Below are positions 8,638 to 57,757 of a stretch of DNA of 64,000 nucleotides, piece after piece; the stretch's first letter is position 1; each line of letters begins with the position of its first letter. The position numbers and the translations under genes are program-made. The stretch is from Emiliania huxleyi CCMP1516 (lineage: Eukaryota). Under the pieces are notes generated by a model that made no database searches, was not told where the DNA came from, and worked only from the letters and a program-made list of their open reading frames with translations. Location: assembly GCF_000372725.1 (NCBI RefSeq), contig NW_005202428.1:1845331-1909330 (forward strand), read 5' to 3'.

Positions 8638-10460
8638 CTACCTACATGGCGCGCCGTCTGGTGGCGGTGCGTCGCTGTCGTCGGCGTAGAATGCCCGCGG
8701 TCCGCGTGCATCCTTGGCAGTGCGGGAGCGCAGCGGAATCCCGAGTGCGGAGAGCCTCTCTTCGGGCATACAGAGGTCGGGGGACCGGAAGGACTCGTAC
8801 GTCCTCTCCCGCTGGCGGCAACGCCCCAAAGAGCGGTGGTTGAGGCCGATTGCCTCAACTGTCAACCAGCGGGTTGACAGAGGTCAACCTTCAACCACGC
8901 GGAATGGCTGCTCACACACACCCCGCGCAAAGACTTCTGAAGGCAGTGAACATTCTCTGTGAATTCATGTCGTCTTCTTTAGATGCTGCATTTGACGCGC
9001 CCTTTTTACGAGTACTTGCTTTTGCTACACGTACACGTGCGTGGATGGGAGGGGTGTGATGCCAAGCCCAGACGAGGAGCGCTGACAAGCCATCGAAGGC
9101 CCTCTGTACATGGAAACAGCTTACCGCAGACATTACCGAACTCAAAACTGCTTACCAAAGGCAGATACGAGCTCAGCTCAGTGAGATCTAGCAGCACATA
9201 CCCTCAGTATCCAGAATAGTAAAGTCTGAACACTGACTGACTGACTGAAAAAGTCGGTCCGACCGCGCAGAGCGGTCTGGCTGTCTGCAGAGGCCAGAGC
9301 TTCCGTCCGGGCCCTGATAAATGTCGGAGGCATGTCGGCCCATGTTCGCGATTTTGATGGCGTTGCCCTCATTGCACGTGAAACAGACCGCGCCGGCCAC
9401 GCACCCTTGTTCCCGGAGGCCAACTCGAACAGGTTTGAGCAAAGGCCGCCTTCCATGCTCGATATGCAGCAGGAGCTTAGTTGACAGTGCTCGAAGGCCG
9501 CCCTGCTCTAAGGCCGCCCTGCTCTCGGCATTGCGTTGTTGACTGAGAGCACTGTCTGATCCAACCAGAAAGAGCCGTCGAAGAGCCGTCGAGCTACATG
9601 AGACCCAAGCAAGTCGTCGTGATGCACCAGAAAACGAAACTTAGCGCCAAAATTGAGATCTCAGGATCGACATTAATTTCTCGCGCCTACTTTCGCTGCT
9701 TGAGACTCGCCAAATAGATCCTGCGTCTATGACCGTGTGCAACGTCAAGTCGTGAACCGCGACAAGACCATCGCGCCAAGCGCGACTCTGTTGCTTTATG
9801 CGGCAGCATTCACCGTGACTCTTGCCGTGGATGCAGCGTGGATGGTGAGTGACCGCGGTTGCTTACGCAAAATACTACGCCGTGAGCTGAGCTTCACCAG
9901 CCGTTTCTCTTCCTTCCCTTGCCTTCTCTTGCCGTCCGTTCTCTGTGCGCATTCCACTGCATGCGGCATCACACGCGTCTCGTTCTGCCGGGCGCGCATC
10001 TGAACTCGTACCAGGTAGCCATCGCTTTGCTGAAAGATCAGGTGCCTGAACGGCGACAGTGAGCGTCTCCTATACTTATGGATTGCGCTCGCGGTCCGAG
10101 GAGCGCAAGAGCGCGCCGCAGGCGAAGCGATTTTTTGGCGGCAGGCTCTTCCAGTTTATCTGTGATCACGCTCGAGCCTGTGAATAGGCCCCGGAGGCCT
10201 CAACCCCCAACTAAAGGGTTGACGGGGGGGTCTCAACCGTCAACCAGATGGTTGAGGGGGGGCCTCAACCCTCAACCCCTCAACCACCCCTCTGGGTAGA
10301 CTCCTTGCACGTTAGAGCAAAATACAGGTACGTAGAGCTAAATACACTGGAAAAATCAAAACATATCAGCAGAGTCCTCCGACGGGAATGTAGAGAGCCA
10401 CGCGTCACACCAATCCTCGCTACCCAACGCGGCCAAAGGATATCCACCTCGAGAACCTCG

Positions 10461-10610
10461 AAGAAAGAAAGAAAACAGACAGGCCAAACGAGGGATGGGA
10501 CGAGGACAGGGTCCCCACCTGCACGAGCAGGATTTTGGAAGAACGATCAGGGGGACAGGTGGGGCTCTCCTGCTCCTGACAAGGGACACGACAGGCTCGC
10601 AGCGCGGTGC
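10461..10610 (+). repeat. Dispersed ~150-bp repeat with (AAAG)n end, copy 1
   Basis: Near-identical reverse complement at 48740-48893; partial third copy at ~24798-24839. Confidence 0.9.
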
Positions 10611-10722
10611 ACTACCTCGAGGAGAGCCACGTACGCCAAAAAGAATTCTTCACCTGGGCGCGGCGCGGCACACACACACAAACCGGGAGCAGCACCGGCA
10701 CACCACCGGAGCCGAAAAAGCG

Positions 10723-11412
10723 ATGCGCAAGCTCTCCGTCCTCTGCCTACACGGCTACTCGATGACCGGAGCGTTATTGCAGCAGAGCATGCGCCGAACG
10801 TGTGAGCGGCTGTCGCATCTCGCGCGCTTCCGCTTCGTCGATGGGCCGCACACGGTGGAGCCCAGCCCGCACCTACCGCTCGAGCTACCCGAGGGCACAC
10901 GTCCGCTAGGCTGGTGGAGGCCGGAACGACAGGATGACAGGTCGTGGCACTTTCACGGTGTCGACGACTCGCTCGCGCTGCTATCGCAGGCGGAGGCGTC
11001 AGAGGTTGAGGCGCATGGCCACGGCGTCGACGTGGTGCTTGGCTTCAGCCAGGGCTCCGCCCTCGCGCACCTCGCGACCGCGCTCCGGCAGCACCGCCCG
11101 AGCGCGTCTCCGTTGCCGTCCTTGCGCGGCGCGGTCTTCGTCGGCGGCTTTCCGTTTGCGCCGGCGTCTCCCGCCTTTGCTGAGGCGTCGCTACATCTCT
11201 CCATGCCAACGCTTCACGTCGCCGGTTCGCGCGACAAGATTGTACGGCCCGAGACGAGCGCGCGCCTGCTGCAGCTCTGCGCCGAGGACAACCGGACGTA
11301 CCACGAACACCAAGGTGGGCACGTCGTGCACTCTGGGAGTGCCTCGCTCGCGGTCTACGAGGACTGGTTCGCGCGGCAACACGTGGGCGCGAGCGGTCAA
11401 CTAGCACAATAA
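10723..11412 (+). CDS. FSH1/OVCA2-family serine hydrolase
   Basis: VLCLHGY, nucleophile motif LGFSQGS, PTLHVAGSRD (Asp) and HQGGHVV (His). Single exon. Confidence 0.9.
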   Translation: MRKLSVLCLHGYSMTGALLQQSMRRTCERLSHLARFRFVDGPHTVEPSPHLPLELPEGTRPLGWWRPERQDDRSWHFHGVDDSLALLSQAEASEVEAHGHGVDVVLGFSQGSALAHLATALRQHRPSASPLPSLRGAVFVGGFPFAPASPAFAEASLHLSMPTLHVAGSRDKIVRPETSARLLQLCAEDNRTYHEHQGGHVVHSGSASLAVYEDWFARQHVGASGQLAQ

Positions 11413-11554
11413 TAATGTGAGTGTACACTAGCTCTGATAGTACGCGAGCGAATAATACACGATCGCGCCATGTTTTTGGTCGACAACACGATCTCATCAA
11501 AGATCAATCTCTCCGGGAAACTCCGCTCTCTCCGGGCGCCTCTCTTGCTGTTGC

Positions 11555-14500
11555 TCACCGCCGCTTCTTGGCTCCGGCCTGCTTGGTGGCGGCAGGCTCC
11601 GCCTCCGCGCGGCCGCCCTCCTCCTCTACCTCCTCTTCCTCCTCTTCCTCCGCCGCCGCCGCCGCCACCGCCGATCCGCCCTTGCGCTTGCGGCCAGACA
11701 AGCCAGAGGTCCCGCCGGCGGCACTGCTGCTGGCGGCGCCGGCGCCTCCAGAGAGGGCGTCCTCCAAGTGGTGCGGTGGCTGCTTCGGCCGCGTGCCGCC
11801 GCCGCCGGAAGGGGCCGAAACGGAGGGGCGAATGCCGGCCGCCTCGAGCGCGCTCGCAAGGTCGGCCTCGCACCTTGCGCGGTGGACAAGCCACGACGAA
11901 CGCCAGATGCGGTGGAACGCCCAGCCGGCCGACGCGAGAGCGCGCCCCTCCTTGATCGACTCGGACCACTCGGCGAGCGACGCGGCCGCGCCGCCGTCCA
12001 GGCAGACGCACAGCCGCCGGTCGTGCTGCTCGTCCTCGACGACGGCGGCGGAGCCGGCGACGGCGCAATCGGTGGTGAAGGCGAAGCCCCGCGCGTGCAG
12101 CCAAGCGTGCAGCTCGCCGTCGGCGGTGCCATCTGCAGTACCGCTGCCGCCGCTGCCGCCGCCGCCGCTCAGCGCCGATCGCCCCTCGACCTGCGACGAG
12201 AGGCGGAGCGAGGCGGCGGCGGGCTGGCCGGCGGCGGCGGCGGCGAACCGCTGGATCGTCCATTGCTTGAGGTCGTCGGGGTTGGGCACATCCGACGCGC
12301 GGAGCGAGCGGAACAGCACCATCCGGTCGCGCGCGCGAGAGAGGGCGACGTTGTACCGCTGCTCGTAGGTGCGGCCGAGCTGTGGCGGCGCGGCGCCCTT
12401 TGAGGCGACCATCGAGAGCAGTATCACGTCGCGCTCGTCGCCCTGGAAAGAGGTCGCGTCGCCGACGACCAGCCGGTGGCGCGCGAGCTGCGCGTCGGTA
12501 AGGCGTCCCAGCAGCAGCGAGCGGAGCAGCCGCGCTTGCTCGACGCCCGCGAGCGAGATGATGCCGACCGAGAGCCCCTCGAGCTCCGACGGTGAGCGCG
12601 CCAGCTGCGCCACGAGGTAGTCGACCAGTGCGCTCGCCTCCGCCGGGTTGACCTTCCCCTTCTTGGCGCCGCCCGGGACAAGGATGTCAACCAGCGCCGG
12701 CTCGAGGCGGCGTGAGCGCGGCGGCAGCCGGCGCGGCAGCAGCCGGCCGTGGTAAAAGTGCTCGTTGCTGAAGGCGATGCAGCCAGGCACGCAGCGGAAG
12801 TGCTGCTGCAGCGCGACGCGCGCGTCCGCGTAGCATGTCTGCGCGAGGTCGAAGACGGAGCGCTCCGGCAGCAGCTGCTCTATGTACGGGTGACGAGAGC
12901 GGAGGAGGCCCGCCTTGAGGTCTCCGATACGCGCCTCCGAGACGAAGGCCGCCGTGGGGGAGACCTAGGCGGCGGCGGGGGCGGGTGTGTGTGGGTGGGT
13001 GGGGGGGGGGGGGGGGGGCGAGGCGTGGGGGCGGATGCGCCACGCGACGGGCACGACGACGAACTGCCACGTCTCGTCCGCACTCGTTGCATCTCGGCCG
13101 CATCTCGGCCGCATCTCGGCCGCATCTTGCCTGCTTGCCGTCGCCGACGACGAGCACGCGGGTGGCGCGCAGCAGCGGAAGGACGGCGCCGACGTTGGAC
13201 TGCGACGCCTCGTCGATGACAACGAGGTCGAAAGAGCGCAGCGTGGCGGGCAGGCACTGCGACACGCGCCACGTAGGCATGATCCAACACGGCACCGACG
13301 CGGCGCAATCAGTGAGGGCGGCGGCGAGATCGGAACGGTACCGCGCCGAACGCGCGCCGTCCGGCGCCGCGCTGCTAGACTGCGAGACGGCCTACAGCCC
13401 AGGCAGCGAGACACACGCTTGGGAGAGGAGAGGCGTGGGCAGCGCGAGAGCCGCCGAAGAATGCGGCTGCCGACACGAGCCGCATGAGCCCGGCGCACGT
13501 TTCGGCGCTCATGCCCTCGCGAAGCGCTTGCTTGGCGGCGGCGGCGACCAGCGCACACACCGCCGACTCGCGCTCGAGGGTGAGCCGCCGCGCCGCGCCG
13601 CCCGCTGCGCGCGCCGCGCGGGCGTCCCGCGTCTCTGCCGCCTCGAGCGCGGCCGCGGCCGCCGCCGCCGCCCAGAGCCTGCGTGCGTCCGCCGGACACG
13701 CGTCTAGCACCAGCGGCGGCGCGGCGGCGCGGACGCCGGCACGTCCGCTGGCGCGGCCGTGCTGCGCCGCCGCCGCGGGCGGCGGCGGCGCTGCGGGCGG
13801 CGGGTCGGGGCGCAAGAGGCAGCCGGCCCACGCCGGGGCGTCGAGCGCGCGCGCCAGGACCTTGAGCTTCGCGACGTGGGAGAGGGCGGCGCGGGCGCTG
13901 AGCAGGCGCTCCCGCGCGCGGAGCACCCCCGCAGCGGCAGCGTCGCCAGACACATCGAGCGATCCGAGGGCGGTGACCGCGGCTCGCAGCGCGGCGAGAG
14001 GCGACTCACCAGCCGCCGCCGCCGCCGCCGGCGGGTCCGTCGCGTGAACGCTGAGCGTGCCGCCTCCAGCGCCGCCGCCGGCGGCGGTGCTGCGAGCGAC
14101 ATCGCCCGTGGCGGCGGCGGAGAGCGCTGCGGCGAAGGAGGCTGCAGCGGCGGCGGCGCTCGAGACGGAGGAGGGTGGCACGCCGGCGCCAGCCGCGCTG
14201 CCCGAGGAGGCGGCCGCGCGCTGCAGCTGCTCGAGGATGGCCTTTTGCTCGCGCTCGCACGCCTGAGGGAGGGGGGGGAGGGGGGGGGGGGGAGAGGGGG
14301 GGAGAGGGGGGTTGGGGAAGGGGCAGACTTGCGGCGTGTGTGTGGTGCAGATCTGGCGTGGACTCGGGCAATCTCGGGCAATCTCGGGCAATCTCGGGCG
14401 ATCTCCTGGAGCTCGTCGCTGTGGAGCTCGAGCGCCGTGTCGAGCGAGCTGATCGCGGTCGCGCAGTCGGCGGCCGAGCGCCACGACTGCAGCCGCGCGG

Positions 14501-17500
14501 CGGCGGCGGAGGAGGCGCCGCCCTCGCCCTCGGGGAGCAGCGCGCGGGACCACTGCGCCTAAAGAAATAGGGCGCGAGTCGTACACGGGGAGGGCGTGAG
14601 AGAGCGCAGCGCGCGAGCTCACCGAGACGCCCGCGGCCTTGGCGGCGGCGGCGGCGCACGCGCCGAGCCGCGGCACGTGGACGGCGCGCAGCAGTGCGCC
14701 CAGCCGGAGCGGGTCGGCCTGCAGGGAGGGGAGCGCCGGCAGGGGCGGGACCGAAGCGACGTACGCGTCTAACGCGGACCACTGCTCGCGCAGCGCCGCC
14801 GCCGCCGCCTGCCGCACGAGCCGCGAGATGCCGCCGAGATGCGACCGAGATGCCGCCGAGATGCGACCGAAGTGCGACCGAGATGCGGCCGAGAGATGCC
14901 GCCGAGATGCGACCGAAGTGTGACGGAGGTGTGGCCGAGAATGCCGCCGCCGCCTGCAGCTCGAGTCTCGCCTCGACAAGCCGCCACTCCGCCTCTGTCG
15001 CCGGGGGTCGGCCTCCGACCTGCACGTGCTCCAGCTCGGCGGCGAGCGTCTGGGACGGGCCTCCCTTGGCCGAGCGCCGGAGCCGGTCGAGCATCGATCG
15101 CTTGTGCGGGTGGGCGTGCCACCGCACCTCGAGCGAGATGCAGCCGAGATTCAGGGACAGCCGAGGGGCAGCCGAGGGGCAGCCGAGGTGCAGCCGAAGT
15201 GGCGCGCCTCGAGCGCCACCTCCGAATCGTCCAGCAACGAGGCGGCGTCAGTCACGCCGCCCTCACTCCGCGCGAGGCCTCCTCCTCCTCCTCCTCCTCC
15301 TCCTCCTCCGCGCGTGAGCATGCGGAGCAGCACCTCGGGCACTGTGACCCCCTCCGACGCGTCCACCGTCGCCGCGAGGGTGGAGACGAGGGAGGCGAGC
15401 TGCGCCGCCGACTCGAGCGTCTGGCGCGCCTGAAAAAGAAAACGCGGGCCCGTGCACTCTTCTTTTCTAGGTGCCGCCGCCTCGGGCGTCCGGCGCGCCG
15501 CGGCGTTGTCCGCGTGGCGCAGCATGCTAAGCAGCCACTTCCCGTCGTCCGGCGGCGGGCGGCCATCGGCGGGCGGCGCGGCGGAGACGGCGGCGATACG
15601 CGCCTCGAGGTCGGCGAGCGACACGCGCAGCTCGACTAGCCTCGAGCGGAGGGAGCGCGCCTCCGGGAGCGCCGCGATCTGCGGCACCTCGCCGCGCACC
15701 TAGAAAGGGTCCTAGAGGGTCCCTGGAGGGTCCCCGGAGCAGCGATCTGAGGCACCTCGCCGCGCACCGCCGCGCGCTCGATCTCGGCGCGGCGGCGGAG
15801 GCCGCGCGCGACCTCGTGCAGCCGCGAGGGGGAGAGGACCTCGAGTGCGGGCGAGCCTCCGCGCAACGCCTCGCCCCACAGCAGCGCCTCGCCGCTCGCC
15901 GCCCGCTCGGCGCGGATCTGCGCGAGGAGCGACTCCTGCGGCGGCGGCCGCCTCGCGTCGAGCCGCACGCCGCGGAGAAAGTAGGCGCGGCTGCGGGGCG
16001 CGTCGAGCGGGGCATGCCGCGCGTCCGCCTCGAGCGCCGCCGACACCGCCTCGGCCAGCTGCGTCGTCGTCGCCGCCTCAGGCTGGCTGAGGGAGAGCTC
16101 GGAGACCACCTCGCGGTGGAGGCTCAAGCCGGAGAGCGGACCCTCCCGCCCGTCGCCTCCGCCGCCGCCCGGCCCGCCTGCAGCCTGCGGGGGACATGTC
16201 GCGGACGTGTCAGGCGACATGTCGTGGGCATGCGCTGTCCCCCTCGCGCGCCCCGCCCGCCGCCTCGTGCGCGCGGGCAGCCTCGCCCGCACTCCCCTGC
16301 CGCGGAAAGTGCGGCGAGGCCCACCGCTCCTCGTCGTGACGCATCGACTCGAGCTCGGCAGAGAGAGACGCGACCTGTCACTCGTACCCAACTCTACTTC
16401 CAACGAACGATCCAACCACTTCCTTCAGAGAGAGAGACGCGACCTGCCGCCGCAGCCGAGCCGTCGCCGAGGCGAGCGCCGACGGCTGCGCCGCGGCGAC
16501 ATTGTCCGCCAAGTTCTCGACCGCGGCCTCGAGCCGCCGGAAGGAGGACGCGTCGGCAGAGCCGAGCGAGACGCACAGCTCGCGCACGCCTGCGGGCAGC
16601 TTCTGGCGCAGCACCTCCAGCGCCGGCTCGCCCTTTGAGGTGACGAGCACGCGCCGGCCCGTCGCGAGGTAGTGGCAAATCACGTTCGCGATCGTCTGCG
16701 ACTTGCCTGTCCCCGGGGGCCCGACCAGCACTGCGCAGCCCTTCTCCTCGAGCGTAGCCACCACCGCCTCCTGCTGCGCGTTGGACGGCAGCCCGAAGTA
16801 CAGAAACGGCCGCTGCTCGATGCCGCCGCCGCCGCCGCCTCCGCCGAGAGGCGTCGAGATTGCGCGGCGAAGGCGGGAGAAGATCGGCCACCGGTCCTCG
16901 GCGGCGGCGCCGGGCAGCGGCGGGGCGGGCGGGAGGCCGTACACGCCGACGAGCCGGCCCAAGGCGGCGGGGAGCGCCGCGGGCGGCAGAGCGCGGAGGG
17001 CGTCAGCGAGGGCGGTGGCGTCGTCGGCTACGCCGCGGTCCTGCGTCACGAACGCACCAGAGTCAGGGCGAAATGCGGCATCGGGCAGTGTACTCGGAGC
17101 AGCGCGTGAACACAGGAGCTACACGTGTAGTGAACACAGCTGACGACAGCCGGACACAGCCGAGAGCGTGTCCCGTGCCCCGCATCTAGGACCGCAGTCC
17201 GCCGCGTCGGCGCGCGTGAAGACGACAAATCCGTTGTACACGCGCGGGGAGGACTCGGGGGCGCCGTGCAGCGCTCCTGCAACCGCACAACGGACGGGGC
17301 GTGTGCGCACGGCGCCGTGCAGTGGACTCGCTCGCATCGCGTGGGCACAAGGGGCGATAGGCAGCTGCGAACGGCACCGCGGCGGCTGCTGCGAGTGTCT
17401 TGTCGCAGCGGCAGCGGCAGCGGTGGGGTGCAGGGGGGGTTCAAGTCCGGGTGGGGGCAGGAGGGTGAGCGTGCAGCAGTCTGCTTCTAGGGCAGCGCTC

Positions 17501-18439
17501 CCTTGGCGGTCGTGCGCGGCGGGCCGTCGACGTAGACGCCGTCGGCCGCGAGTGTCTGCGCCGCGCGCTGCAGAAGCGGCTCCCACGCCCGCCTACCAGG
17601 CGGGACCCGCTGTACTCGACTCGTCTCTCTGCTCACGGCGGGCGGCTGCGAGCTGCGCGCTTTGCGGTCGGCGGCGGCGGAGACGAGCCGAGCAAGCCGT
17701 AGGCGCGCGCGCACTCGTCGAGCAGCTTGAGCGCCGCGGCGACGCGCGGCACCTAGACAGGAAGGGCGTGCGCCCCTAGGGAGCGGAGGCTGTGAACCGG
17801 AGCACCTCTTGCGACGCGCGGCCGCACCCCTGGGAATGTCCACAGGGCGGGGGCGGAGGCGTCGGCCATGCGGACGCAATACGCGCCGGTGGCGTCGAGT
17901 TGCAGCTCCGCCGGCATCATCACCAGCGGGTGGTCAATCACGGTCGACGCGTCCACACGCCAGCGCACGAGGCCGACGCCGACGGTGAGCTGCGCGCCTC
18001 GCCCCTCGCGCAACGCCTCCTGGTGGGAGGAGAAGAGGGAGGCGTAGGCCGCACACGCCGCCTGGGCGGCCGGCGAGCGGTCGTCGTGGTCCGGCCGATG
18101 CAGCGACACCCAGCCATGCCGGGACGGCTCGGCAGCCGCGGGCACGTCATCCTCATCCGCCATCATCGCGACGACAGGCCGCTGCGCCTTGAGCTGCTTG
18201 CCGGTGGTGGGGTCGCGCGATGCGACGGTCCGCTTCGCCTCCTTCAGCTTGTCCAGGAAGCCCTCGTGCAGCATCACTCCGATGTCGTCACCAGCAGCCT
18301 TTGCGGCATCAGCAGGGCCGCGCAAGGCCAGGCGCGGCTCGAGGTCGCGGCGCGAGACCTCGTTGAGCTCCTTGGTGTACTCGACGAGCGCGATCAGCCG
18401 GCGAGCCGCCTCCTCCTGGTCCTGCGCGAGATCGCCCAT
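11555..18439 (-). CDS. Large superfamily-1 (UPF1-like, AAA_11/AAA_12) helicase with C-terminal Vsr/restriction-endonuclease-like domain (multi-exon)
   Basis: Walker A GPPGTGKSQTIAN, FDLVVIDEASQ, VVGDGKQ, QHFRC, FQGDERDVI and YNVALSRARD, followed by a CLDGG...AGWAFHRIWRSSW domain. N-terminus MGDLAQDQEEAARRLIALVEY. Confidence 0.85.
17041..17199 (-). mobile_element. Introner-like intron, family 1 copy A (GA-AG)
   Basis: GACTGCGGT-CCTAGA...GTGACGCAG|GACCGCGGC. Removal restores FTRADAA|DRGVADD. The body is similar to copies D and E. Confidence 0.75.
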
Positions 18440-18877
18440 CCAGGACACGGCTGAGCCAAAGTGGTTTTTCGAACCGCACCGCCCAAAACCTGCTGGAGAG
18501 CTGAATCAGGTTCCGCTGAGCTGCTGTGAGGCTCTAGGACTGCCTCTGCAAGGGGCCCCTCCAATCTCCTGCCCCACCGCTTGGTAGCAGGTAGCATCGA
18601 CGGGTGGCCTTGCCTCCCACATCGATGTGGGCGTAGGGGTTGAGTTGAGTAGTGCGTCATCTTGATTGAGGGAGGGCGCGCCGGTCAGGTTTTGGTTCCA
18701 GAATTTCATCAATGAGTGGAGAGTGCCGCCCAAGCAAGAAGTACACACACCTGGGGTGGGTGGAAAATTCCGAAGAGCGGGCGCGCATGGCACTAACAGC
18801 AGGCCGCTAATATTCTTATTGTTAGAGAACAGAAATTGGCCTACTCGGCCGAACTGCTGCAAAGCTTGCAGGTCCCC

Positions 18878-20033
18878 TCATACGTAGTGCTCCGCTCGAG
18901 CCGCGCCCTCGGTGCCGGCGGCGAGCGCGCGCGCCAGCGCCACGTGCAGGCGGTGCGACGCCTTGTGCGCCACCACGTGCGCGAGCGGCAGCTCGCCGAG
19001 CAGCGCCAGATCTCCGAGCAGGTCGAGCGTCTTGTGGCGCGCGGGCTCGTCCGGGAAGCGGAGCCCCTCCGCGTTGAGCCACCGCCGCTCGTCGCACACG
19101 AGGGCGTTCTCGAGCGAGCCCCCGAGGGCCAAGCCGGCCGCACGCGCCTACGGGCCGCGCCGCGGACGTGTCGGGGACGCGTCTGGCCAGCTGAGGCCCC
19201 AGGCCCGGCCGGCCGCGCCGCGTGCACGCCCTGCGTCGTCGCAAACGTGCGAGCGGGAGCGAGCTCCGCCTCGAAACGGTCGATCGCCGCAGTCGAGCGC
19301 CGCGCAGGCAGCGCGCCCTACGGGGCGTGTCCCGGTGTGTCCCGAGGCGCGCGCCCCCCTCGACGTGCCGCCGCTAAATCAGCGCGTCTGCCGCGGGTCC
19401 TACCCCCGCTCGGCTGTCGGTGTGCGCCGCGCCGACCGACCGGCCCGTCGGGGGCGGCCCGTGCACGCAGAAGGAGAAGCTCTGCCGCCCGATGGGCGCG
19501 AAGGCGCCAAAGTCGATCGTGTACGTCAGCCGTGGCGCGGCGGCGGGCATGGCGACGACCCACGCGTCGCCGTGGGCGGCCCAGACGGGCGCGCGCGGCG
19601 CGAGCGCCTCTGGCGCCGACGCGGTCGGCGCGAGTCCCGCCGCGCGGATCAGTTTTAGCCACGGCGCCGACGAGCCGTCGAGGATGGGCAGCTCTTGCGC
19701 ATCGAGTGCGACAGTGCAGGAGGAGACGCCGGCGCCGCAAAGCGCGGCGAGCAGGTGCTCGACGGTGCGAACGCCGCCGCCGCCGCCGCCGCCGCCGCCG
19801 AGCTCGGTGCTCAGCTCGGTCCCAGAGACGTCCGCCGGCGAGGCGCGCACTCTCGTCCCGGGCAGATCCGTCCGCACAAACGTGACGCCGCCTCCAGGAA
19901 AGCCCGGTCCGAGCCTCACGCGCACGAAGCGGCCGCTGTGGAGCCCGACGCCGCTCACGTCCGCAGTGCCGGCTAGCGTGAACGCGTGGCGGCGGCAGCG
20001 CCTGGGAGCGGCGGAGGGTCGGGGTCCGCGCAT
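18878..20033 (-). CDS. lpxC: UDP-3-O-acyl-N-acetylglucosamine deacetylase (lipid A pathway)
   Basis: [51 protein letters not shown] and KASHRLH, with introns. Start uncertain. Confidence 0.92.
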
Positions 20034-20277
20034 AAGGGGAAAATGTACTCGTCGCCCTGAATGGTTGGTTGCCCAGGTTACTCAGGACACGATCGCGCCG
20101 TGAACACAACTAACTGACGGATCCGCTCCTGACAGTCGCACGCGCCGTGCTGTGGCGCGTGCGACTGTCTTTGTTTGAAGTCAAAAGTCGAATCAGAGCG
20201 GTGTCGGCGTTGTCCTGAGTTTTCTCCCCCGGACCGCCCGTCCGGCACCGCTCCGGGACGCACGCCGGCGAAGCACC

Positions 20278-25230: not shown

Positions 25231-26730
25231 TCACGCCTTGCCGACGGTCGCGACGAGCTTGCTCCACAGCCGGGCAGCCTGCCCCTGGAGCGTCACAGCA
25301 AAGCCGGGGCCGTTGCTGGCGTTGAGCATGTAGTCGCGACAGGTGAAGAACATAGCTCGCGTCGCCTGCGTCTTGGTGAAGACGTCGGCGATCATATAAG
25401 CAGTGCCGACGAGGTACGGCGCGACGTGGCGGAGCATGAAGAGGCGCTTGACAAACATGGTGGCACGTTCGTAGTAGCGCGTGCGAGCAGTAGAGCCGGG
25501 CTTGACGATGATGTCAAAGACGGCTTTGCAGTCACCGAGCTGGGGCGTGGGTCCTGCGACAGCTCGGCCAGCGTCCTCGAGCATGAGCCGGCAGGAGACG
25601 ACTTTCTTGGCGGCGACGGAGGCGGTGGCGGTCTCCTCTTCGGCGACGCTGAGAGCCTCGATCTTGGACTTGTTGGCGCTCCAGTCGATGGCGCCGTTGT
25701 TGAACATCACGACGCATCCGCCGTAGTGTGGCGCCTTGCCGAAGGAGGCGTCATGGTAGGCGTGGAGGCCACGAGACTCGATGAAGCCTGGCGGGAAAGT
25801 GTCGAGTCCGTAGGGGATCTTGAGCTTTCCGCCGTAGGTGATGCCGAGGTGCTTTGTGGCGTTGAGATAGTTGATGACGGTCATGATGGCGTCACGATGG
25901 ACGGCGCCGCAAGCCTGAGAGAAAGAGCCGAGCTTCGAGAAGAAGTACTTGATGTCGGGGCGCGTCATCTCGGCAGGCCACCCGATGGTTCCTAGCGGCT
26001 TCAGGAACTCGGTGACGGGGATGCGGTCGCACTCGGCAGCAGGCTCGAGCTTATCGAAGAGGGCGCGCTGGACGTCGGTCGAGCCGGCTGGGGTGGACTG
26101 AGCACGAGCGCCAATCTCGTTGCCGTAGAGGGCGGCAATCCGCTCGATGTACCGGGTCTGCCGAATAGTGAGCGTGCGGTTGGCTCGGTCGCGGAGTACC
26201 TCGATTCCGGTGAAGACGGAGATGGGGACGATATCGAGCGTCGCAATCTTGATGTACGTTCCATATTCCTCTTTGAACCGGACGTACTGGTCGGTGGCGG
26301 AAGCGGCAAAGCCGTTTGCGACGTCGTCTGCAAAAACAACGATGATTAGGCGAAAGGCTGGGTGGCTGTAGAAGTTTGGCTCGGTGAGCGAGGCGACGCA
26401 GCCAAGCTTGACGAGGGCGTCCTGGTTGAGTTTGAACCAAAGGTAGGAGCCCTGTTTGATGCCCTCGAGCGCTTTGAGAAGCATGAGCACAAAGCCCTTC
26501 TTGACGAACCCGGGTGGCATCTGGGTGTAGATCTCGGCATCGACGTCAGCCTGAGTAAACGCCTTGACGCCGTCGGCCGTGTCAGTCTCGAGGTCTTCGT
26601 CAGCGACTATGGCACACCATAGGCGGAAGGCTGTTGCGCTCAGAGTGCGCGCAAAACACTCGTGGTACTCCTTGCCTTCACGTTGTCCAAAGCCTTTCCC
26701 AACGAGACGAGCCTTGACCTTCGCTCTTGT
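25231..26730 (-). mobile_element. Ty1/Copia retrotransposon remnant: reverse transcriptase + RNase H
   Basis: KARLVGKGFGQ, DGVKAF, EIYTQMPPGF, LLKALEGIKQG, FADD and TRPDI; RNase H YHDASF, EEET, LGDCKA and ADVFTK. No gag, protease or integrase. Confidence 0.92.
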
Positions 26731-26764
26731 CTCGTGGCGTCTCTGCGGCTCCGCGGCCGAGCAG

Positions 26765-29302
26765 ATGGTGAGGTTGCTCTGCGTGGCGTCTCTGCTCGGG
26801 TACGCCAGCGCTGGGTGGACGGGAGCCCTCGGCTTGACGTTCGAGTCGAACAAGCCCGTCGAGGCCAAGTCGCTCTTCTGCCCGAGCGGCTTCATCACTG
26901 GCATCCGCGTCAAGTACGGCCGCACGAGGGACGAAGATAGGGACTTGTACGACTTCAAGCTCAAGTGCGGCCAGCGCTGGACGAGCTGGTCGGGGCTGTG
27001 GTTCAAGAACGAGTTGGAGGACAAGACGTACGAGTGCCCGGCAAAGATGTACGTCACGGGGATCGAGGTGTGCTAGCTGTGAGATGCCCTGCGGCCGCCG
27101 CCGCTCAAGGCTTCGCCCCGGCTCGGCCGTCGTCGCTGCCCGCCGCCGTCGCGTGCCGCCGCTGCTAGTCGCTCGGTTGGTCGGGACACCGACACACCAC
27201 ACCAAAAGCCGCTAGCATTGAGTCTTTGAGTCCGCCGGCTTGGCTGCTGCACAGGTCAAGCGGGGGCGGCGTGAGTGGGGCGACAAGGACACGTACGACT
27301 TCAAGCTGCAGTGCTCGGGCGTGTGGCAGGACTTCATGGGCATGAAGTTCGGGGGGCAGCAGGAGCAGGCGGGCACCGAGTGCCCCAGCGGCGAGGGCAC
27401 CTCGGGGCTCAAGGTGATGCTTCTAGAGAGGAGAGAGGCGGCGAGTGGGCGGCCGAAACGCCCCTCCAGGCGGAGAGACCCAGCAGTGGGCAACCCGACA
27501 CCACCACCTTCCGGCGACGCACCCGCCTCGCCGCCGCCTTCACCGCCCACGCCACCGCCGCCCTCGCCGCCGCCCTCGCCGCCGCCCTCGCCGCCGCCAC
27601 CCTCGCCGCCGCCGCCGCCGCCGCCGCCCTCGCCGCGGCCGCCCTCTCCTCCGCCCCCACTGCCTGCCTCTGCCCCTCACCTCACGCCAGCGCTCCAATG
27701 CCGGGCGGCCGCACCGATGGCCGTCCGGTCAAAAGCGAACTGTACTCTCTGGCACACCACTGCCCGCGGGTTAGCTGGCGACCTCCGCCCCTGCACTGCG
27801 GAGCTCCCTTACCGACCCGCCGACACTGGCTCCCCCCCCCCCCCCCCAAGGACACCCCTCCACGGCGCTATTCGCCTCCCTCACTCACACACACCTCCCG
27901 CGCACTGCTCCACCCCTCAACACGCCCTGCACGCCCACTGTGTCCGTGTGCGGTCCTCGCCCATAGGTGTTTCGCGGCTTTGTCGACTGGGGCGACAAGG
28001 ACCTGTACGAGGTGACTTCCGAGACCCCCCCCCCCACACACACACCGCACACGCACACACACTTGCCTAGCCAGTACCCGGCGCTCGCTCGCTGCCTCTG
28101 CTGCCGCCGACGCGCCCCTCGCGTGCCTTGCCCGCCTCACCTCAACCCCCCCCCCCCCCGCCCCCGCCAGTTCGAGCTCAACTGCAAGTCGATCGCGGCC
28201 AACTTGGCGTCGATCCGCGGCCTGCCCGATCTCAAGATGCTGGGGCTGCAGCGAAACGTGCGCTCCCACCTGCAGCTCCGCTCCGCCACCGCCACATGCC
28301 AGCCTGCCTGCGGCAGCGGCCAGCGACCATACCGGGGACCAGCGGGGGCCGCAGCGCCGGAAAGGTCGCGCGGCTCAGCCGGCATCCATCGCGCCACGTT
28401 AGCGGCGGGGGGAGGCCGCTGCGAGGGCGGGGCGTTCGGGGGCGGGGGGAGGGGCGTTTGCGCACACGCAGTCCTTGACACTCACGCTGGCGCGCGGCGG
28501 TGTGCATGAGTGCCGCCCCGACGCCGCTTCCCAGGTGCTGGTGTGGGACGGGGAGCAGCTCGGCGCGTGGCTAGAGGCGCTCGGGTTGGGCGACCTCGCC
28601 CCCTCCTTCCTCCACCACAACGTCAACGGCGGCACCGTCTTCTTGCTGACCGAGGAACACTTGCGCGACCTCGGCTTCAGCGTCGTCGGCGACCGGCTCT
28701 ACTTTATCGAGCTGCTCACCCAGCTGTGCGGGATAGCCGAGACGCCCCGCCACGGGCCGAGACGAGCCGGAGACGAGATGAGCGAGCCCGCCTCTCCGCG
28801 TGACGGCGGTGCACATGGCACAGGTACGACGACATCGTCGCGTGGTCGAGCAAGATCGGCGTGCAGCTCGCGACGCACCCGGTGCCGCCGCTTCGGCAGA
28901 TCGGCCTCACGCTGCAGCCGACGACGTGGAGCGTCAAGGACGTGTGCAAGGTGCTCAAGGCTGTGGGGCTCGAGGCGAGCGCCGCCCGCCCGCACGTCCG
29001 CCACCCCACCGCCCAAGCCATCCCACCGCCCAAGCCATCCCACCGCCCAAGCCACCCCGAGCCCTCGACATCCGCGCCACGCCGCCGCGGCGCAGGAGTA
29101 CGTTGAGCTGTTCGTCGAGCACCGGATCCAGGGCGACGTGCTGTTCAACCTGACCGAGGAGAACCTCAAGGAGATGGGCATCGAGAAGATTGGCGACCGC
29201 CTCCTCATCACCGACATCGTCCAGACGCTCTACGAGCAGGTGACGGGGTGGCAGCAGCAGCAAGTCAACCCGCAGTCCCTGCTGCAGCTGGGCGCGGCCT
29301 GA
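26765..29302 (+). CDS. Signal-peptide protein with three Cys-containing repeats (VMO-I/beta-prism-I-like) and two SAM domains (multi-exon)
   Basis: MVRLLCVASLLGYASA; 3x CP...(I/V)TG(I/L).V..G....D.D.Y(D/E)F.L.C; SAM-like W....LGAWLEALGL...LTEEHLRDLGF..VGDR and WSVKDVCKVLKAVGL...LTEENLKEMGIEKIGDR. Confidence 0.75.
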
Positions 29303-52529: not shown

Positions 52530-52799
52530 ATCAAGCTGCTGTACGACGGCCCCGGCATCGCCTTCCCAGGCTTAGCTAGACTGACTGAGAGATATTGTGC
52601 ACATGGTTGGTCTCTACAATATATACACTGACACTGAACCTCCCAGAGCTCGTCCCGGTCCGTCACGGCCATCCTCGGCCTCCGGAGGGCCCCCGGCCGC
52701 GGCGCGGTGCGGCGGCGTCACAAATCCGACCACAGTGCACAGAGCAACCGGGACGCGGTCGGGCGATCCGAGGGCGAGGCCCAACAGGCGTATGCATTG
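52530..52799 (+). repeat. Dispersed ~250-bp repeat, copy 2
   Basis: Direct copy of 20278-20527 with small insertions. Confidence 0.9.
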
Positions 52800-52977
52800 T
52801 CTATCCACCTATCAACAGGCGCCTGCGGCACCGTGCTCAGGAGCTGCTGCTCCAACCTGTCCACACTTTCGTACAGCTAAGTACTCGAGTTTGAGAGCGT
52901 GCAAGAAGAAAGAAAAACGCCGGGCCCCTGCTCTCCCTGCCCTGGGGCGCGAACTCCAAAGGCACCCGCCGTTGCCG

Positions 52978-54817
52978 ATGGAGGCGTTCGCATTCGACGG
53001 CGGCAGGTCGCGAGCGGCGCGCACGGCGGCGGTGCCGCCCGCCGCCTCGCTGCCGTCGCCTCGCCGCGAGGCCGCCCCCGCCGCCGCCGCCGTCGCCACC
53101 GCCCCCGCCGCCGCAGCCGCCGCTGCGACTGCAGCCGCGCCCGCGGCCGATGGCGCCTCGAAGATCCGCCAAATGGGCGGGAACGCCGCGCTGCGGATCT
53201 GCTCCGACCAGGTGGTCGTCGACCTGCGCTCGGCGCTCAAGGAGCTCGTTGAGAACGCCCTCGATGCGGGGGCGACAAAGCTGGAGGTGCGCCTCAAGGA
53301 GCACGGCGCCGAGATGCTGGAGGTGACCGACAACGGGCGCGGCATCTCGTGCGAGAACCTGGACGGGGTGGCCCGCCGCCACCACACCTCCAAGCTGCGC
53401 GAGTTTGACGACCTCGGCCGCCTGCGATCCTTTGGCTTTCGCGGCGAGGCCCTCTCGTCGCTCGCGGCGCTCTCGAGCCTCTCCGTCGCCACGCGGACCG
53501 AAGACGACGCGGTCGGCACCTCGCTCTCGTTTGGTCGGGACGGCGAGATCAGCGCGAGGTCGAAGGTGGCGCGCGACGTCGGCACGACGGTCTGCGTCGC
53601 CCGCCTCTTTGAGCCCTTTGCTGTCCGGCGGCGCGAGGCGAGCGGGGACCTGCCACGCGCACAGAGAGACCTACACGCACGGACACGCACGCGCAGACGC
53701 GCGCAGACAACGACGTACTCGCCCCTCCCCACACCACACACACTTCTCGTGGGACGGCTGCTTGTTCACACCCCTCCTGTTTTGCATTCACAGCTCGTGC
53801 GGACGGCGCAGCTCGAGATGCGGAAGATGCTCGCGGCACTGCAGGCCTCCCTCCCTCCCTCCCTCCCTCCCTCCCTCCCTCCCTCCCTCCCTCCCTCCCT
53901 CCCTCCCTCCCTCCCTCTACCACTCACTCACTCACTCACTCGGAGGATGCTCGCGGCCCTGCAGGCGTACGCGCTCGTCTGCACGGCTGTCCGCTTCTCG
54001 TGCGTCAGCCTCTCGGCGAAGACGGGCCGCCAGTCGCTGCTGCAGACCGAGGGCGGAGCCGCGGGGATGCGAGNNNNNNNNNNNNNNNNNNNNNNNNNNN
54101 NNNNNNNNNNNNNNNNNNNNNNNNNNNNNNNNNNNNNNNNNNNNNNNNNNNNNNNNNNNNNNNNNNNNNNNNNGTGAGCGAGCTCATCCCGCTGAGCGGC
54201 TCGACGGATCGCGTGACCATCCACGGCTTCGTCTCGCGCCCCCGCGCCGGCCACGGGCGCCGCGCCTCCGACCGGCAGTACACCTTTGTTAACAGCCGCC
54301 CCGTCGACTTTCCTCGCCTCGCGCGCGTCGTCAACGACGCGTTTCGCGCCTCGACGGCCAAGTCGGAGTGCTTCCCCTTCCTGCTGCTCAACCTCGAGGC
54401 CGTCGCCCGACGCCGCATCGGCCGTGCAACCAGTCCCTTCTCCTTGATGTCTCCCCTCGCCAACAGGCGCCGCCGGACGCGTACGACGTCAACGTGACGC
54501 CCGACAAGAGGACGGTCTTCTTCGTCGACGAGGTGGACACCCCTCGGCCGCCTCCCGCCCTCCCCCCGACCCAAGTCCCCCTCCGTTCCGATGCACCTCT
54601 CCTGCCTTCTCGCGCACCTCCCTGTCGCCTCCCCACTCTCGCCCGGCGCCTGCCTGCACCCGGCCGCCCTCCCCGCGCCCTCACCCTGGGACCCAGGCGG
54701 CGCTGCTTGGCTGCATCGGAGAGATGGTGGCGAAGCTATTCGCCGCCGAGTCCTGCACTTTCGCCGTCCATACGCCCGACACGCTGCCCCTCGCACCGCG
54801 CCCAGCCGCCGCCGCAG

Positions 54818-54855
<38 letters not shown>

Positions 54856-54926
54856 CGGGTTGGCGGGGATGGTGGCGACGGCGGCGATGGTGGCGGCGGC
54901 GGCGGCGGCGATGGTGGCGACGGCGA

Positions 54927-54959
<33 letters not shown>

Positions 54960-57757
54960 TGACGGCGGTGACGGCAGTGGCGGCGGCCACGCTGGAAGCG
55001 GCTCAGCCGCCGGCGGTGGCCGCAGCGAGGAGGCGGCGTCGCGCTCGGAGGCGCCCCGCGGGACCAAGCGCAGCCGGGCCGTCCCGCACGGGGGAGTGCC
55101 GCGGGAGGGAGCAGCGAAGGCGCGGGCTCTGGCCGGACGGGGGAAGGGGGATGCGGCGGCGGAGTCAGAGACGGAGGAGGAGGAGGAGGAGGCAGAGGTG
55201 GGGCAAGAGGAGCAGCGGTCGCTTCCTCCGCAAGCGACTGCAAAGCGGGTGACGGCGCCGGCGCCGGAGTCCGCCGCAGCGACCGCCGCAGACGTGGCGG
55301 GGGAGGCGGAGGGTGCGGGAGGAGAGGTGGCGGCAGAGGCGGCCGCCGACGCCGTCATGGAGGACGTGGGCCAGCGCGAGGGCGAAGCGGCGGAGGAGGG
55401 CGAGGCGGCGGAGGCGGCGGACGGGGACAGCGGCGGCGGCGACGGGCGGGAGGCGGGCGGGCGGGGAGCTTCCTCCAGCGACGCGCCCGGAGGCGGCAGG
55501 TCGATCGCCGACGGGCCAGGCAGTGGGGGTGCGGGCACTGCGGGGGCGCCGGACGGCTCTCGCCCGTCGCGCAGGGAAGCGTCGCGAAGCAGGTCGCCGT
55601 CAGGGGACTGCTCGGCTGCCCCTGCCCGGCGCTCCCCGCCGCCGGCAACGGCGCTGGCGCCGACAACGGCTCCGGCGCCGCGCGAGCCGAGTACCACCAA
55701 GCCTCGCGCGGAGGGAAGGGGGCGTCGACAGGCGAGGGAGAGGGAGGAGGGGTCGGCGGAGCCGGAGTGCTCAGAGGCAGCGCCGGAGGCGGGGGCGGCG
55801 GCGGACGAAGAGGCGGCGCCAGAGACGGACGGGTTGCTCGAAGCTTCGCTGGTCGAGGCGCTCTTCACGCAGCTGCGCGAGCTGCAAGAGGCGTCCGCCG
55901 AGGAGGAGCGCTCGCCGCTGCAGACGCTGCAGACGGCCTGCACCATCTTTTCGCAGCAGATAGCGGCGTGCGGCTCGGCGGAGCCTCCCGCGGCGGCGGC
56001 AGCGGCGCCGGGGGAGGGCGCTGATGAGGGGGGCGTCGTGCCAACCGTGGTGAGGTGCGCGTCGCGCTACATCAAGGGCTGGCTGAGCCGTCACGGCGGC
56101 GACGAGGCGACGGTCTATGAGCCGGAGATTGAGGCGCCCCTCGCGGCTTGCGGCTTCGACTGGCAGCGCGAGGCGTTCGAGACGCCTCCGGACGCCGCCG
56201 CGGTGAGCGACGCCTTCGCAGACCTCGCCCGCACGCTGCTCTCGCGGGTCCCGGCGCCGCCGGCGGAGGGAGCCGCGCCCCAGCCCGCTGGCACCGGCCG
56301 CTTTGGCGGCCGAGGCGCCGCCGGGCGTGGCAGGCGCCGCCCGCCCGCCCCTCCCGCTCCCGCCGCCCGGCCGGCGGCGGCGGCCGACGCGGAGACGGCC
56401 TTGCCGCCGCTCTCGATCGCGCGTGACATTGGCGTCGCTTTCGACATGGAGTCCTTCAGCGCGCAGTATGCGCTCGCTTGCTGTGCCGCCGGCGGCGGAG
56501 GCGACGCGGCGGGTGCGGGTGCGAGCCTCGGCCCCGGCGGGCGGCTCGACTCTGGCCCGGCTGGCGGCGCGAGCCCGAGCGTGCCGAGCTCGAGCGTGCC
56601 GAGCTCGAGCGTGCCGAGCGCAGGGAGCCTCGAGGCCGCGACCCGGGCGGCGGGCCGCGCGGCGGCGGAGAGCGAGGTGGAGGGCGAGCTGCGCCGCGTG
56701 CTGCCGAAGGCTGACTTTCGCACGATGGAGGCCGCGAGCCAGCAGAGAGTCGCAGAGAGTCGCAGAGAGTCGCAGAAGTCCGTGCGAGGGCTCTTGCTCC
56801 ACTTCCAAGCGCTTCCCACAGCCTGCCAACCTCCCCCTCCCCAAAACCCACCCACTCGCCGCCACCACCGCCACCACCACCCACAGCCTGACCCCCACCC
56901 CCCGCCAATCGCAGGTGCTCGGCCAGTTCAACTTGGGCTTCCTGATCACGCGCCGCGGCGACGACCTCTTCATCGTCGGCCAGCCTAGACCTTTGCATTC
57001 CGACGGGCACTCGAGACGACACGTACTCGTACTCTCGGTCGTATTCGTAGCCCCATCACTCACGCGATGCTCCGAGTGCACTGCACGGGACCGTGTTCGC
57101 GCCCCGACTCTGGCGCGTTCATGACGCAGGTCGACCAGCACGCCGCCGACGAGAAGTTCCGGTTCGAGAACCTGCAGCGCTCGACCAAGCTGCACACGCA
57201 GCGGCTCATCCGGCCGCTGCCTCTCCACCTTACCGCCGTGGACGAGCTCACGGTACGAGATCGCCCGAGATCGCCCGAGATCGCCGATGACGAGCTCGCG
57301 GCGCCCGCGCCAGCCCCCCCCCCCCCCTCCCCCTTTCCCTCAGGTGATCGAGCACCTGCACATCTTCAAGGACAACGGCTTCGAGGTGCAGGTCGTGCAA
57401 GACGCGCGGCCGACCGAGCGGCTGCGTCTCCTCACCCTCCCCTTCTCCAAGCACACCGTCTTTGGCGTGGCCGACGTGCACGAGCTCATCGCGCTCCTCA
57501 CCGAGGCGCCCGGCGCCCACGCGCGCCTCCCGAAGCTGCGCGACATGTTCGCCTCGCGCGCCTGCCGCGGCGCCGTCATGATTGGCACCGCGCTCGAGCC
57601 GCAACGGATGCGCACCATCGTCTCCAACCTCGCCGGCCTCGACCAGCCGTGGAACTGCCCGCACGGGCGGCCCACGCTGCGCCACCTGATCGACCTGTCA
57701 AGCCTGGGTGGCACGGCCGCGGCGAGGTCGTTCCGCTCTTTCGAGCCAACAGGTTAG
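52978..57757 (+). CDS. PMS2: Mismatch-repair endonuclease PMS2 (yeast/plant PMS1), MutL family (multi-exon, spans a gap)
   Basis: KELVENALDAGA, DNGRGI, HHTSKL and SFGFRGEALSSL; C-terminal GQFNLGF, DQHAADEK, ASRACR and WNCPHGRP. Confidence 0.93.
54074..54173. other. Assembly gap (100 N)
   Basis: Run of N. Confidence 1.
56975..57129 (+). mobile_element. Introner-like intron, family 1 copy D (GT-AG)
   Basis: GTCGGCCAG-CCTAGA...ATGACGCAG|GTCGACCAG. Removal restores the conserved DLFI|VDQHA. Confidence 0.82.

What the first reader, a model, noticed from the sequence alone, without database searches (positions are those of the whole stretch)
11555..18439. Bacterial-type SF1 helicase + Vsr-like nuclease gene domesticated with introns: candidate antiviral gene
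Seen: the order is N-terminal YASLF...QLTVGVGLVRW....IDHPLV, then LYFGLPSNAQQ...GPPGTGKSQTIANVICHYLATGRRVLVTS...ALEVLRQKLP, a long helical insert, PCWIMP..VSQ.LP..FDLVVIDEASQS, AAA_12 motifs and a C-terminal AGW.F.RIW domain. Established: this split-helicase plus Vsr/MTES_1575-type endonuclease layout is typical of large bacterial proteins, and a DUF4011-helicase-Vsr protein (Hhe) is a described antiphage system. It lacks the Cys/His domain of eukaryotic UPF1. Inference: a horizontally acquired gene, now intron-rich and GC-adapted, possibly acting against the giant DNA viruses that infect such algae.
Basis: partly seen in the sequence, partly recalled or inferred. Interest (0 to 1): 0.8.

Follow-up and report, generated by a model that had tools for sequence, protein, structure and literature searches.

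The report
Algal helicase with disarmed bacterial nuclease
This is an intact, spliced algal gene for a large DNA/RNA-unwinding enzyme, likely taken long ago from a mobile bacterial defence-type family and shared with diatoms and other marine algae; its nuclease end has lost the residues needed to cut, so it likely unwinds rather than cuts nucleic acids in the nucleus, and an antiviral role is untested.

Summary
The gene is real: minus strand 18439-11555, 15 exons, an open 1798-aa frame, and spliced in RNA contigs from five studies. It encodes a UPF1-like SF1B helicase with intact motifs, split by a ~750-aa insert, followed by a Vsr-fold domain. Its closest prokaryotic kin are an unnamed, patchy, mobile-element-associated ~1500-1700-aa family related to, but not within, Hhe/ProA. 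Orthologues occur in haptophytes, pelagophytes, diatoms and a Picozoa-like clade, so the acquisition is old and not special to this alga. The main correction is that the 'nuclease' is a pseudo-nuclease. Of 288 bacterial-type relatives, 267 keep all four core Vsr/EDxHD catalytic residues. None of 140 eukaryotic copies keeps more than one, and this protein keeps none. Eukaryotic copies gained basic NLS-like tails, and strain variation is purifying (pN/pS 0.18). Best reading: an exapted, likely nuclear helicase for genome or R-loop upkeep (0.5). A non-cutting antiviral role stays open (0.28). The trees place the eukaryotes beside, not inside, the sampled bacteria.

The parts
11555..18439 (-). CDS, 15 exons, 1798 aa. 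Exons: 18439-17828, 17752-17661, 17592-17501, 17276-17200, 17040-16444, 16374-16264, 16184-15768, 15699-15499, 15429-15208, 15127-14954, 14808-14623, 14558-14406, 14262-13471, 13391-13131, 12964-11555
   Evidence: RNA contig joints and pieces; splice sites placed within the equivalent slides; open frame. Intron 15207-15128 is inferred.
17897..18046 (-). N-terminal domain core (aa 132-181), a divergent DUF4011-like motif
   Evidence: Lead only. hhalign to three DUF4011-type sets hits the same motif at E 0.006-0.09, probability under 7%. Atlas nearest clusters for the Prymnesium orthologue are DUF4011 at score 0.84. No Pfam DUF4011 hit.
16444..16812 (-). N-terminal part of the first RecA domain, with Walker A GPPGTGKS (aa 398-405, 16722-16699)
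   Evidence: Pfam AAA_30/AAA_11/AAA_19; position
13338..16347 (-). Long Ala-rich insert (about aa 500-1260) that splits the helicase; poorly conserved; helical character is inferred, not modelled
   Evidence: 24-31% identity to three of the four orthologues compared over aa 500-1200, 57% to the closest; same layout in bacterial relatives
12329..13214 (-). Helicase motifs II-VI (DEASQ aa 1302, GDGKQ, HFRC, FQGDERD, RYNVALSRAR aa 1532), all intact
   Evidence: fold matches SETX/UPF1/IGHMBP2/Sen1/Dna2 at Z 17-19 with 18-21% identity
11837..12124 (-). Vsr/EDxHD-fold pseudo-nuclease (aa 1610-1705). A1635, C1650, A1655-57 and S1665 stand where bacterial relatives have D, E, H and D
   Evidence: AlphaFold model pLDDT about 90 in this part; matches I-Bth0305I 3r3p Z 11.2, Vsr 1cw0 Z 9.1, 3hrl Z 9.0; residue counts
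11558..11836 (-). Low-complexity tail with a poly-Glu run and basic NLS-like motifs (RKRK, terminal KKRR)
   Evidence: Sequence; tails of this kind in 129 of 139 eukaryotic rows against 8 of 288 bacterial-type rows

Best explanation
The gene encodes a large UPF1-like (SF1B) helicase with intact motor motifs and a Vsr-fold domain that has lost its catalytic residues; it likely descends from a mobile bacterial helicase-nuclease family and likely works in the algal nucleus as an ATP-driven unwinder of DNA or RNA:DNA structures, with the dead nuclease fold predicted to bind rather than cut. Shown: gene structure, splicing, motifs, fold, residue loss, distribution, purifying selection. Inferred steps: (1) an early marine eukaryote took the gene from bacteria, once or a few times; (2) haptophytes and pelagophytes share one copy through eukaryote-to-eukaryote transfer; (3) cutting was lost and a basic tail gained, so the protein could sit in the nucleus without damaging host DNA; (4) the motor tracks 5'-3' along single-stranded nucleic acid (from the SF1B family, established knowledge) and clears R-loops, stalled forks or bound proteins, a Senataxin/IGHMBP2-like upkeep role.
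For: Intact motifs I-VI in eukaryotic and bacterial rows. Core nuclease residues: all 4 kept in 267 of 288 bacterial-type rows and 11 of 11 DUF4011-type rows; 133 of 140 eukaryotic rows keep none, 7 keep one. The residue roles come from passages of PMC3239194: Vsr Asp51 binds Mg, His69 is the presumed general base, Asp97, and an acid at the Phe62 position. The domain is still constrained: 54% identity to Prymnesium against 31% for the insert, but it drifts faster than in bacteria (0.43-0.45 against 0.64 at helicase identity 0.6-0.7). NLS-like tails: 31/33, 92/98 and 6/8 against 8/288, with internal-window controls of 0.15, 0.46, 0.04 and 0.03. Strain differences are 22 synonymous and 10 non-synonymous, pN/pS 0.175, with none changing a helicase motif. 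Each named alga shows one hit, except Fistulifera with two, so there is no expansion of the kind seen in immune families. Bacterial relatives are patchy across phyla, lie on 42 plasmid records, and sit beside mobile or defence genes in 15 of 33 loci against 2 of 20 control stretches (Fisher p 0.014).
Against: No biochemical, localisation or knockout data. The upkeep role is inferred from family and conservation pattern. The trees do not nest the eukaryotes inside bacteria: they are sister or paraphyletic to the sampled bacterial clade, and the root sits on a long branch, so the donor and even the direction are not established. The distribution looks patchy (no Phaeodactylum, brown alga, oomycete or green alga named among the listed hits, though lists were cut at 120-150), which fits an accessory gene better than a core one. 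An acid in helix 1 (D1611) and the Asp of the DG motif (D1652) are kept, so residual or non-canonical activity is not excluded. The catalytic mapping rests on alignment to bacterial relatives and motif matching to Vsr, not on a residue-level structural superposition. The NLS regex is crude, and diatom internal windows hit it 46% of the time.
Confidence: 0.5

Rival explanations
1. Antiviral or anti-mobile-element factor without cutting: the helicase recognises viral DNA, transcripts or R-loops in the nucleus and blocks them, or signals cell death through a partner, in the way MOV10- and ZNFX1-type helicases act in animals (recalled).
For: Ancestry in a defence-type superfamily: best profiles are ProA, Hhe, PDC-S37 and Mokosh. 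Bacterial relatives lie beside restriction, toxin-antitoxin or HNH genes in 7 of 33 loci against 0 of 20 (p 0.037). The carriers are bloom-forming algae with large DNA viruses (recalled). [quoted passage not shown]
Against: Purifying polymorphism, one hit per named genome, no expansion. The same passages say all ProA domains are essential for defence, and the nuclease here is dead. The direct bacterial family has no tested anti-phage activity. No infection data were accessible.
Confidence: 0.28
2. One reading: an active helicase-nuclease that shreds giant-virus DNA, like Hhe or ProA in bacteria.
For: The domain layout and Vsr fold are kept; two acidic positions remain.
Against: 0 of 4 core residues in this protein; none of 140 eukaryotic rows keeps more than one; far below the Hhe and ProA cut-offs.
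Confidence: 0.06
3. RNA-side role (mRNA surveillance, transcription termination, small-RNA silencing) as a functional analogue of UPF1, Sen1 or MOV10.
For: The helicase fold is closest to UPF1/SETX/IGHMBP2; SF1B UPF1-like helicases often act on RNA (established knowledge).
Against: The appended fold is a DNA-binding Vsr fold; there is no Cys/His or other RNA-surveillance domain.
Confidence: 0.12
4. Not a lateral acquisition: an ancient eukaryotic gene (organelle-derived or ancestral) lost from most lineages, or even a donor to bacteria.
For: Eukaryotic clades branch outside the sampled bacterial clade (SH-aLRT 97-100 for the bacterial clade); eukaryote monophyly is not rejected (p-AU 0.218).
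Against: All outgroups with this layout are prokaryotic (Hhe, ProA, PDC-S37). An intact active site in both the bacterial family and the outgroups makes the eukaryotic state derived. Named eukaryotic carriers are confined to a few marine lineages. Pelagophytes plus diatoms are rejected as a clade (p-AU 8e-53), which is against plain vertical descent.
Confidence: 0.12

Closest known systems
Unnamed prokaryotic family of ~1500-1700-aa 'AAA domain-containing protein / very-short-patch-repair endonuclease' (e.g. P0022 Methylocystis, P0030 Desulfobacter, loci L001-L080)
   Same: Same N-terminal domain, split SF1B helicase with long insert, C-terminal MTES_1575 domain; 34-40% identity over the last exon; one clade with the algal proteins (SH-aLRT 98-100).
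   Different: Bacterial members keep the nuclease active site, often end in a GreA/GreB domain (PF01272) and lack the basic tail. No function has been tested for them as far as my searches show.
Prometheus ProA (NF058533; van den Berg 2024, known to me only through passages of PMC13700489)
   Same: Best NCBIfam match; DNA2/NAM7-like helicase with insertion plus REase.
   Different: About 200 of 1500 bits for the full-length Prymnesium orthologue; no Pfam DUF4011 or DUF3320; separate clade; nuclease dead.
Hhe (NF042953, PDLC02194; Gao 2020, recalled) and PDC-S37 (PDLC05009)
   Same: Helicase plus Vsr-type domain in one gene.
   Different: About 120 of 2000 bits; PDC-S37 175 bits against 1700-1870 for true members; separate clades.
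Eukaryotic UPF1 / SETX-Sen1 / IGHMBP2 / Dna2 / ZNFX1
   Same: Same SF1B helicase fold (Z 15-19).
   Different: 18-23% identity; phmmer of the last exon finds 0 PDB sequences at E 0.01 while bacterial relatives score about 200 bits; no Cys/His domain. They were not placed in a tree.
Vsr / EDxHD endonucleases (Vsr 1cw0, I-Bth0305I 3r3p; passages of PMC3239194)
   Same: C-terminal fold.
   Different: Mg-binding Asp, general-base His, second Asp and the Phe62-position acid are all replaced.

Membership tests
UPF1-like SF1B helicases (superfamily) | Motifs I, II (DEASQ), III-VI and two RecA folds | tested here: met
UPF1-like SF1B helicases (superfamily) | ATP-dependent 5'-3' unwinding | not testable with these tools
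   Needs biochemistry
UPF1 / SETX / IGHMBP2 / ZNFX1 orthologue | Closest sequence relatives are these proteins; their accessory domains are present | tested here: not met
   0 PDB sequence hits at E 0.01 for the last exon; profile best E 1e-20; no Cys/His domain; TIGR00376 73-97 of 349 bits
UPF1 / SETX / IGHMBP2 / ZNFX1 orthologue | Placement in a tree holding those eukaryotic proteins | not tested
   No tool returned their sequences
Hhe | NF042953 score over 2000 bits | tested here: not met
   120-146 bits for the five full-length algal orthologues; 31-49 per exon here
Hhe / ProA | N-terminal DUF4011 | tested here: inconclusive
   No Pfam hit; weak hhalign and atlas lead suggest a divergent remnant
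Prometheus ProA | NF058533 over 1500 bits; C-terminal DUF3320 | tested here: not met
   158-207 bits for the algal orthologues; no DUF3320
Hhe / ProA | Tree placement inside the DUF4011 clade | tested here: not met
   Separate starred clades
Hhe / ProA | Anti-viral activity | not testable with these tools
   No infection data accessible
Vsr / EDxHD / MTES_1575 REase | Fold | tested here: met
   Z 11.2 (rmsd 2.2, 89 aligned) to 3r3p and Z 9.1 (rmsd 2.3, 92 aligned) to 1cw0
Vsr / EDxHD / MTES_1575 REase | Catalytic Asp, Glu, His, Asp | tested here: not met
   0 of 4; roles from PMC3239194
Unnamed prokaryotic split-helicase-REase family (P0022 type) | Full-length colinear homology and shared clade | tested here: met

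The most novel reading that the evidence does not exclude
Haptophytes, pelagophytes, diatoms and Picozoa share a nuclear antiviral helicase descended from a bacterial anti-phage family. It was disarmed as a nuclease, perhaps more than once in parallel, turned into a sensor or blocker of viral nucleic acid, and passed between algal lineages with the pelagophyte-to-haptophyte gene flow. It would be a first conserved innate-immunity gene across the dominant marine bloom algae.
Probability: 0.25. Interest if true: 0.85.

Novelty: new variant of a known kind. Interest (0 to 1): 0.55.

Why it matters
It gives a clean case of a bacterial conflict-type enzyme domesticated across major marine algae, with one clear molecular signature: the motor is kept, the nuclease is disarmed and a nuclear-type tail is added. 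That is directly testable in transformable diatoms. If it proved antiviral, it would name a host factor in algal bloom-virus dynamics, where few are known (recalled). The untested bacterial parent family is itself a candidate defence system.

Tried and rejected
No whole genome is held, so copy number and synteny in the host could not be checked. A single-sequence fold was useless (pLDDT 38) and was replaced by an alignment fold. Foldseek was filled by the helicase domain; the Vsr match came from VIA-align. Viral vector: IMG/VR gave 15 loci, of which one (L149) nests among bacteria, six (L150-L155) form a distant prokaryote-like branch with intact active sites, and six of the other eight fall among the outgroups (L158 and L162 were not placed); none is near the algal clade. 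The phage collection gave one weak hit. Recent transfer from a named bacterial clade is not supported by the trees. Pelagophyte-plus-diatom monophyly is rejected. A TIGR00376 search for outgroups gave one partial locus. Contig depths cannot rank expression, and three small same-study runs with no words (X18-X20) were not interpreted. An atlas search of the pseudo-nuclease alone did not complete. Seven literature searches found no paper on eukaryotic members, and a search on GA-AG introns found nothing. The Prometheus paper is not held; it or its supplements may already show eukaryotic homologues.
Full report
Observation. The window reads as ordinary GC-rich eukaryotic chromosome: GC 0.55-0.75, with a copia-type RT, SNF2, MBD, SAM and ankyrin genes among 95 frames scanned. 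The nearest named relative of the protein is from the haptophyte Prymnesium parvum (47% over aa 7-1715). A coccolithophore-type host is my inference from composition and recalled intron habits, not a tool result.

Gene structure. Seventeen of 20 listed runs hold the stretch. Five laid runs from five studies (X1, X3, X9, X10, X12; only X10 is on record as RNA) give spliced contigs, while X15 runs through the introns. Thirteen introns are read from joints or adjoining pieces. One (15207-15128) is inferred from piece ends, lengths and homology. The 15 exons give an open frame of 1798 aa. Donors are GT in 4, GC in 7 and GA in 3; all acceptors are AG. The runs were picked because they hold the gene, so they show that it is transcribed, not when or how much.

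Anatomy. The order is: an N-terminal domain with a weak DUF4011-like motif (lead only); Walker A at aa 398; an insert of about 750 aa; motifs II-VI at aa 1302-1541; a Vsr-fold domain at aa 1610-1705; and an acidic/basic tail. A model of the last 373 coding residues before the tail (pLDDT 86.7, 73 sequences) matches SETX, UPF1, IGHMBP2, Sen1 and Dna2 in the helicase (Z 17.7-19.3) and I-Bth0305I, Vsr and ngo0050 in the last domain (Z 11.2, 9.1, 9.0).

The nuclease is disarmed. Passages of PMC3239194 name the Vsr/EDxHD site: Glu25, Asp51, His64, His69, Asp97 and an acid at the Phe62 position. The bacterial relatives show the matching FE, ID, IE-DG, YH and D pattern (mapping by motif, my inference). 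I counted four core sites, anchored so that gaps do not matter. Bacterial-type rows: 267 of 288 keep all four. Haptophyte plus pelagophyte: 32 of 33 keep none. Diatom: 94 of 98 keep none. Picozoa-like: 7 of 8 keep none. P0327 keeps one. No eukaryotic row keeps two. Rows with under 75 residues of the domain were dropped (7 of 40, 3 of 101, 0 of 8 and 1 of 289). The rows are redundant: 18, 55, 2 and 78 clusters at 70%. Most unnamed rows are assigned to a group by tree position only. This protein keeps an acid in helix 1 and the Asp of DG but none of the four. The 11 DUF4011-type outgroup rows keep all four, so the loss is derived. The domain remains more conserved than the insert, and helicase motifs are intact in all groups.

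Relatives and distribution. Eukaryotic hits: Prymnesium, an MMETSP transcript, four named pelagophytes; many diatoms, including Seminavis, Nitzschia, Cylindrotheca, Amphora, Pseudo-nitzschia, Thalassiosira, Fistulifera, Extubocellulus and Attheya, plus Entomoneis and Minutocellus; a clade with one 121-aa member labelled Picomonas judraskeda (its record name suggests a single-cell assembly, so the label is soft); and one unnamed eukaryote-like protein, P0327, whose best hits are bacterial. Lists were cut (120 of 397, 120 of 3902, 120 of 2775 and 150 of 6393), so more distant eukaryotic clades cannot be excluded. Prokaryotic relatives at 34-38% occur patchily in many phyla (564 of 600 candidate stretches confirmed, 80 kept) and on plasmids (42 records). 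For the 35 loci over 20 kb (2 dropped because the gene was not called), the two nearest ORFs on each side include a transposase, integrase, relaxase, restriction, toxin-antitoxin or HNH gene in 15 of 33. The same holds for 2 of 20 blind control stretches (Fisher p 0.014). Caveats: I assigned the categories after seeing the hits, the controls come from five genomes only, several loci are related Microvirga, and a Sir2 hit in one control was not counted. Full-length algal and bacterial members score far below the ProA and Hhe cut-offs.

Phylogeny. Five trees were built: FastTree on 108 and 464 rows, and IQ-TREE quick LG+C20 on 55, 72 and 50 rows with helicase columns only. All join the algal proteins and the unnamed bacterial family to the exclusion of ProA, Hhe and, where included, PDC-S37. 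Haptophytes group with pelagophytes (94-100), not pelagophytes with diatoms (p-AU 8e-53). This fits the pelagophyte/dictyochophyte-to-haptophyte gene flow reported for plastid-targeted proteins in PMC5462543 (abstract and part 1 of section 18 read), although this protein shows no sign of plastid targeting. Against the simple HGT story: in four trees the sampled bacteria form their own clade and the eukaryotes lie outside it (95-100; the large FastTree was inspected only around the eukaryote clades), and eukaryote monophyly is neither found consistently nor rejected (p-AU 0.218). The root hangs on a long branch. Bacterial rows were chosen as top hits, and 22 rows were left out of the 50-row tree (long branches and redundant rows). 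The donor, the number of acquisitions and the direction are therefore inferred from distribution and from the ancestral intact active site, not shown by nesting.

Function. Eukaryotic copies carry longer tails with K[KR]x[KR]-type motifs (129 of 139 against 8 of 288). The 32 listed coding differences between the window and six runs are 22 synonymous and 10 non-synonymous (pN/pS 0.175; one search hid four rows). Named genomes give one hit each, except Fistulifera with two. These points favour a stable, likely nuclear upkeep helicase (0.5) over a non-cutting antiviral factor (0.28), an RNA-surveillance role (0.12) or an active antiviral nuclease (0.06); the origin rival (0.12) is a separate axis. 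Similar open questions are raised for Tiamat homologues (abstract of 10.64898/2026.09.30.754977).

Literature. Read: passages of PMC13700489, PMC3710099, PMC3239194 and PMC13276650; abstract and part of one section of PMC5462543; abstract of the Tiamat preprint. Not read: van den Berg 2024 (not held) and Gao 2020 (recalled). No supplements were read. Searches found no description of eukaryotic members. An earlier AI note on a diatom genome (e1-7530960) reached a like reading; I saw it only after my counts, and it is not independent evidence.

Verdict. New variant of a known kind; interest 0.55.

Noticed in passing
window 17500-17277, 17199-17041, 14405-14263 (-): Three RNA-supported introns have GA donors; no GT/GC..AG placement fits within the equivalent slides. 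Seven more are GC..AG and only four GT..AG.
   Followed up: partly
window 16443-16375, 15767-15700, 14953-14809, 17500-17277, 15207-15128, 15498-15430: Six of 14 introns are bracketed by direct repeats of 8-18 nt across the junction, as expected from intron gain by duplication of a splice-site-bearing stretch or a target-site duplication; several introns also hold short tandem repeats.
   Followed up: no
window 10692-12959: Single RNA contigs run from the helicase's last exon through the convergent intronless FSH1 serine hydrolase gene (10723-11412, +), suggesting overlapping 3' ends; contigs are unstranded.
   Followed up: no
window 18881-20081 (-): Spliced LpxC (lipid A pathway deacetylase) gene directly upstream on the same strand; its transcript ends near 18593-18750.
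   Followed up: no
window 52585-56985 (+): Large gene with a GHKL ATPase domain (HATPase_c_3, E 1.8e-13) followed by long unannotated frames; possibly MORC/Sacsin/Tiamat-like.
   Followed up: no
window 10193-10276 and 10300-10633: Three 19-nt repeats with an inverted pair, beside a stretch with very high summed contig depth in RNA runs: probably a dispersed repeat element.
   Followed up: partly
L025:2321-6135, L049:2352-6154, L060:2423-6297: An SbcCD-like metallophosphoesterase plus SMC ATPase pair lies directly upstream of the bacterial helicase-nuclease in 3 of 33 loci; possible multi-gene system.
   Followed up: no
P0292 (and about 17 other bacterial-type rows): A minority of bacterial-type members also have degenerate nuclease sites (17 of 288 keep two or fewer core residues); many bacterial members end in a GreA/GreB C-terminal domain (PF01272).
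   Followed up: partly
window 25234-27072 (-): Copia-type reverse transcriptase (RVT_2) frame.
   Followed up: no
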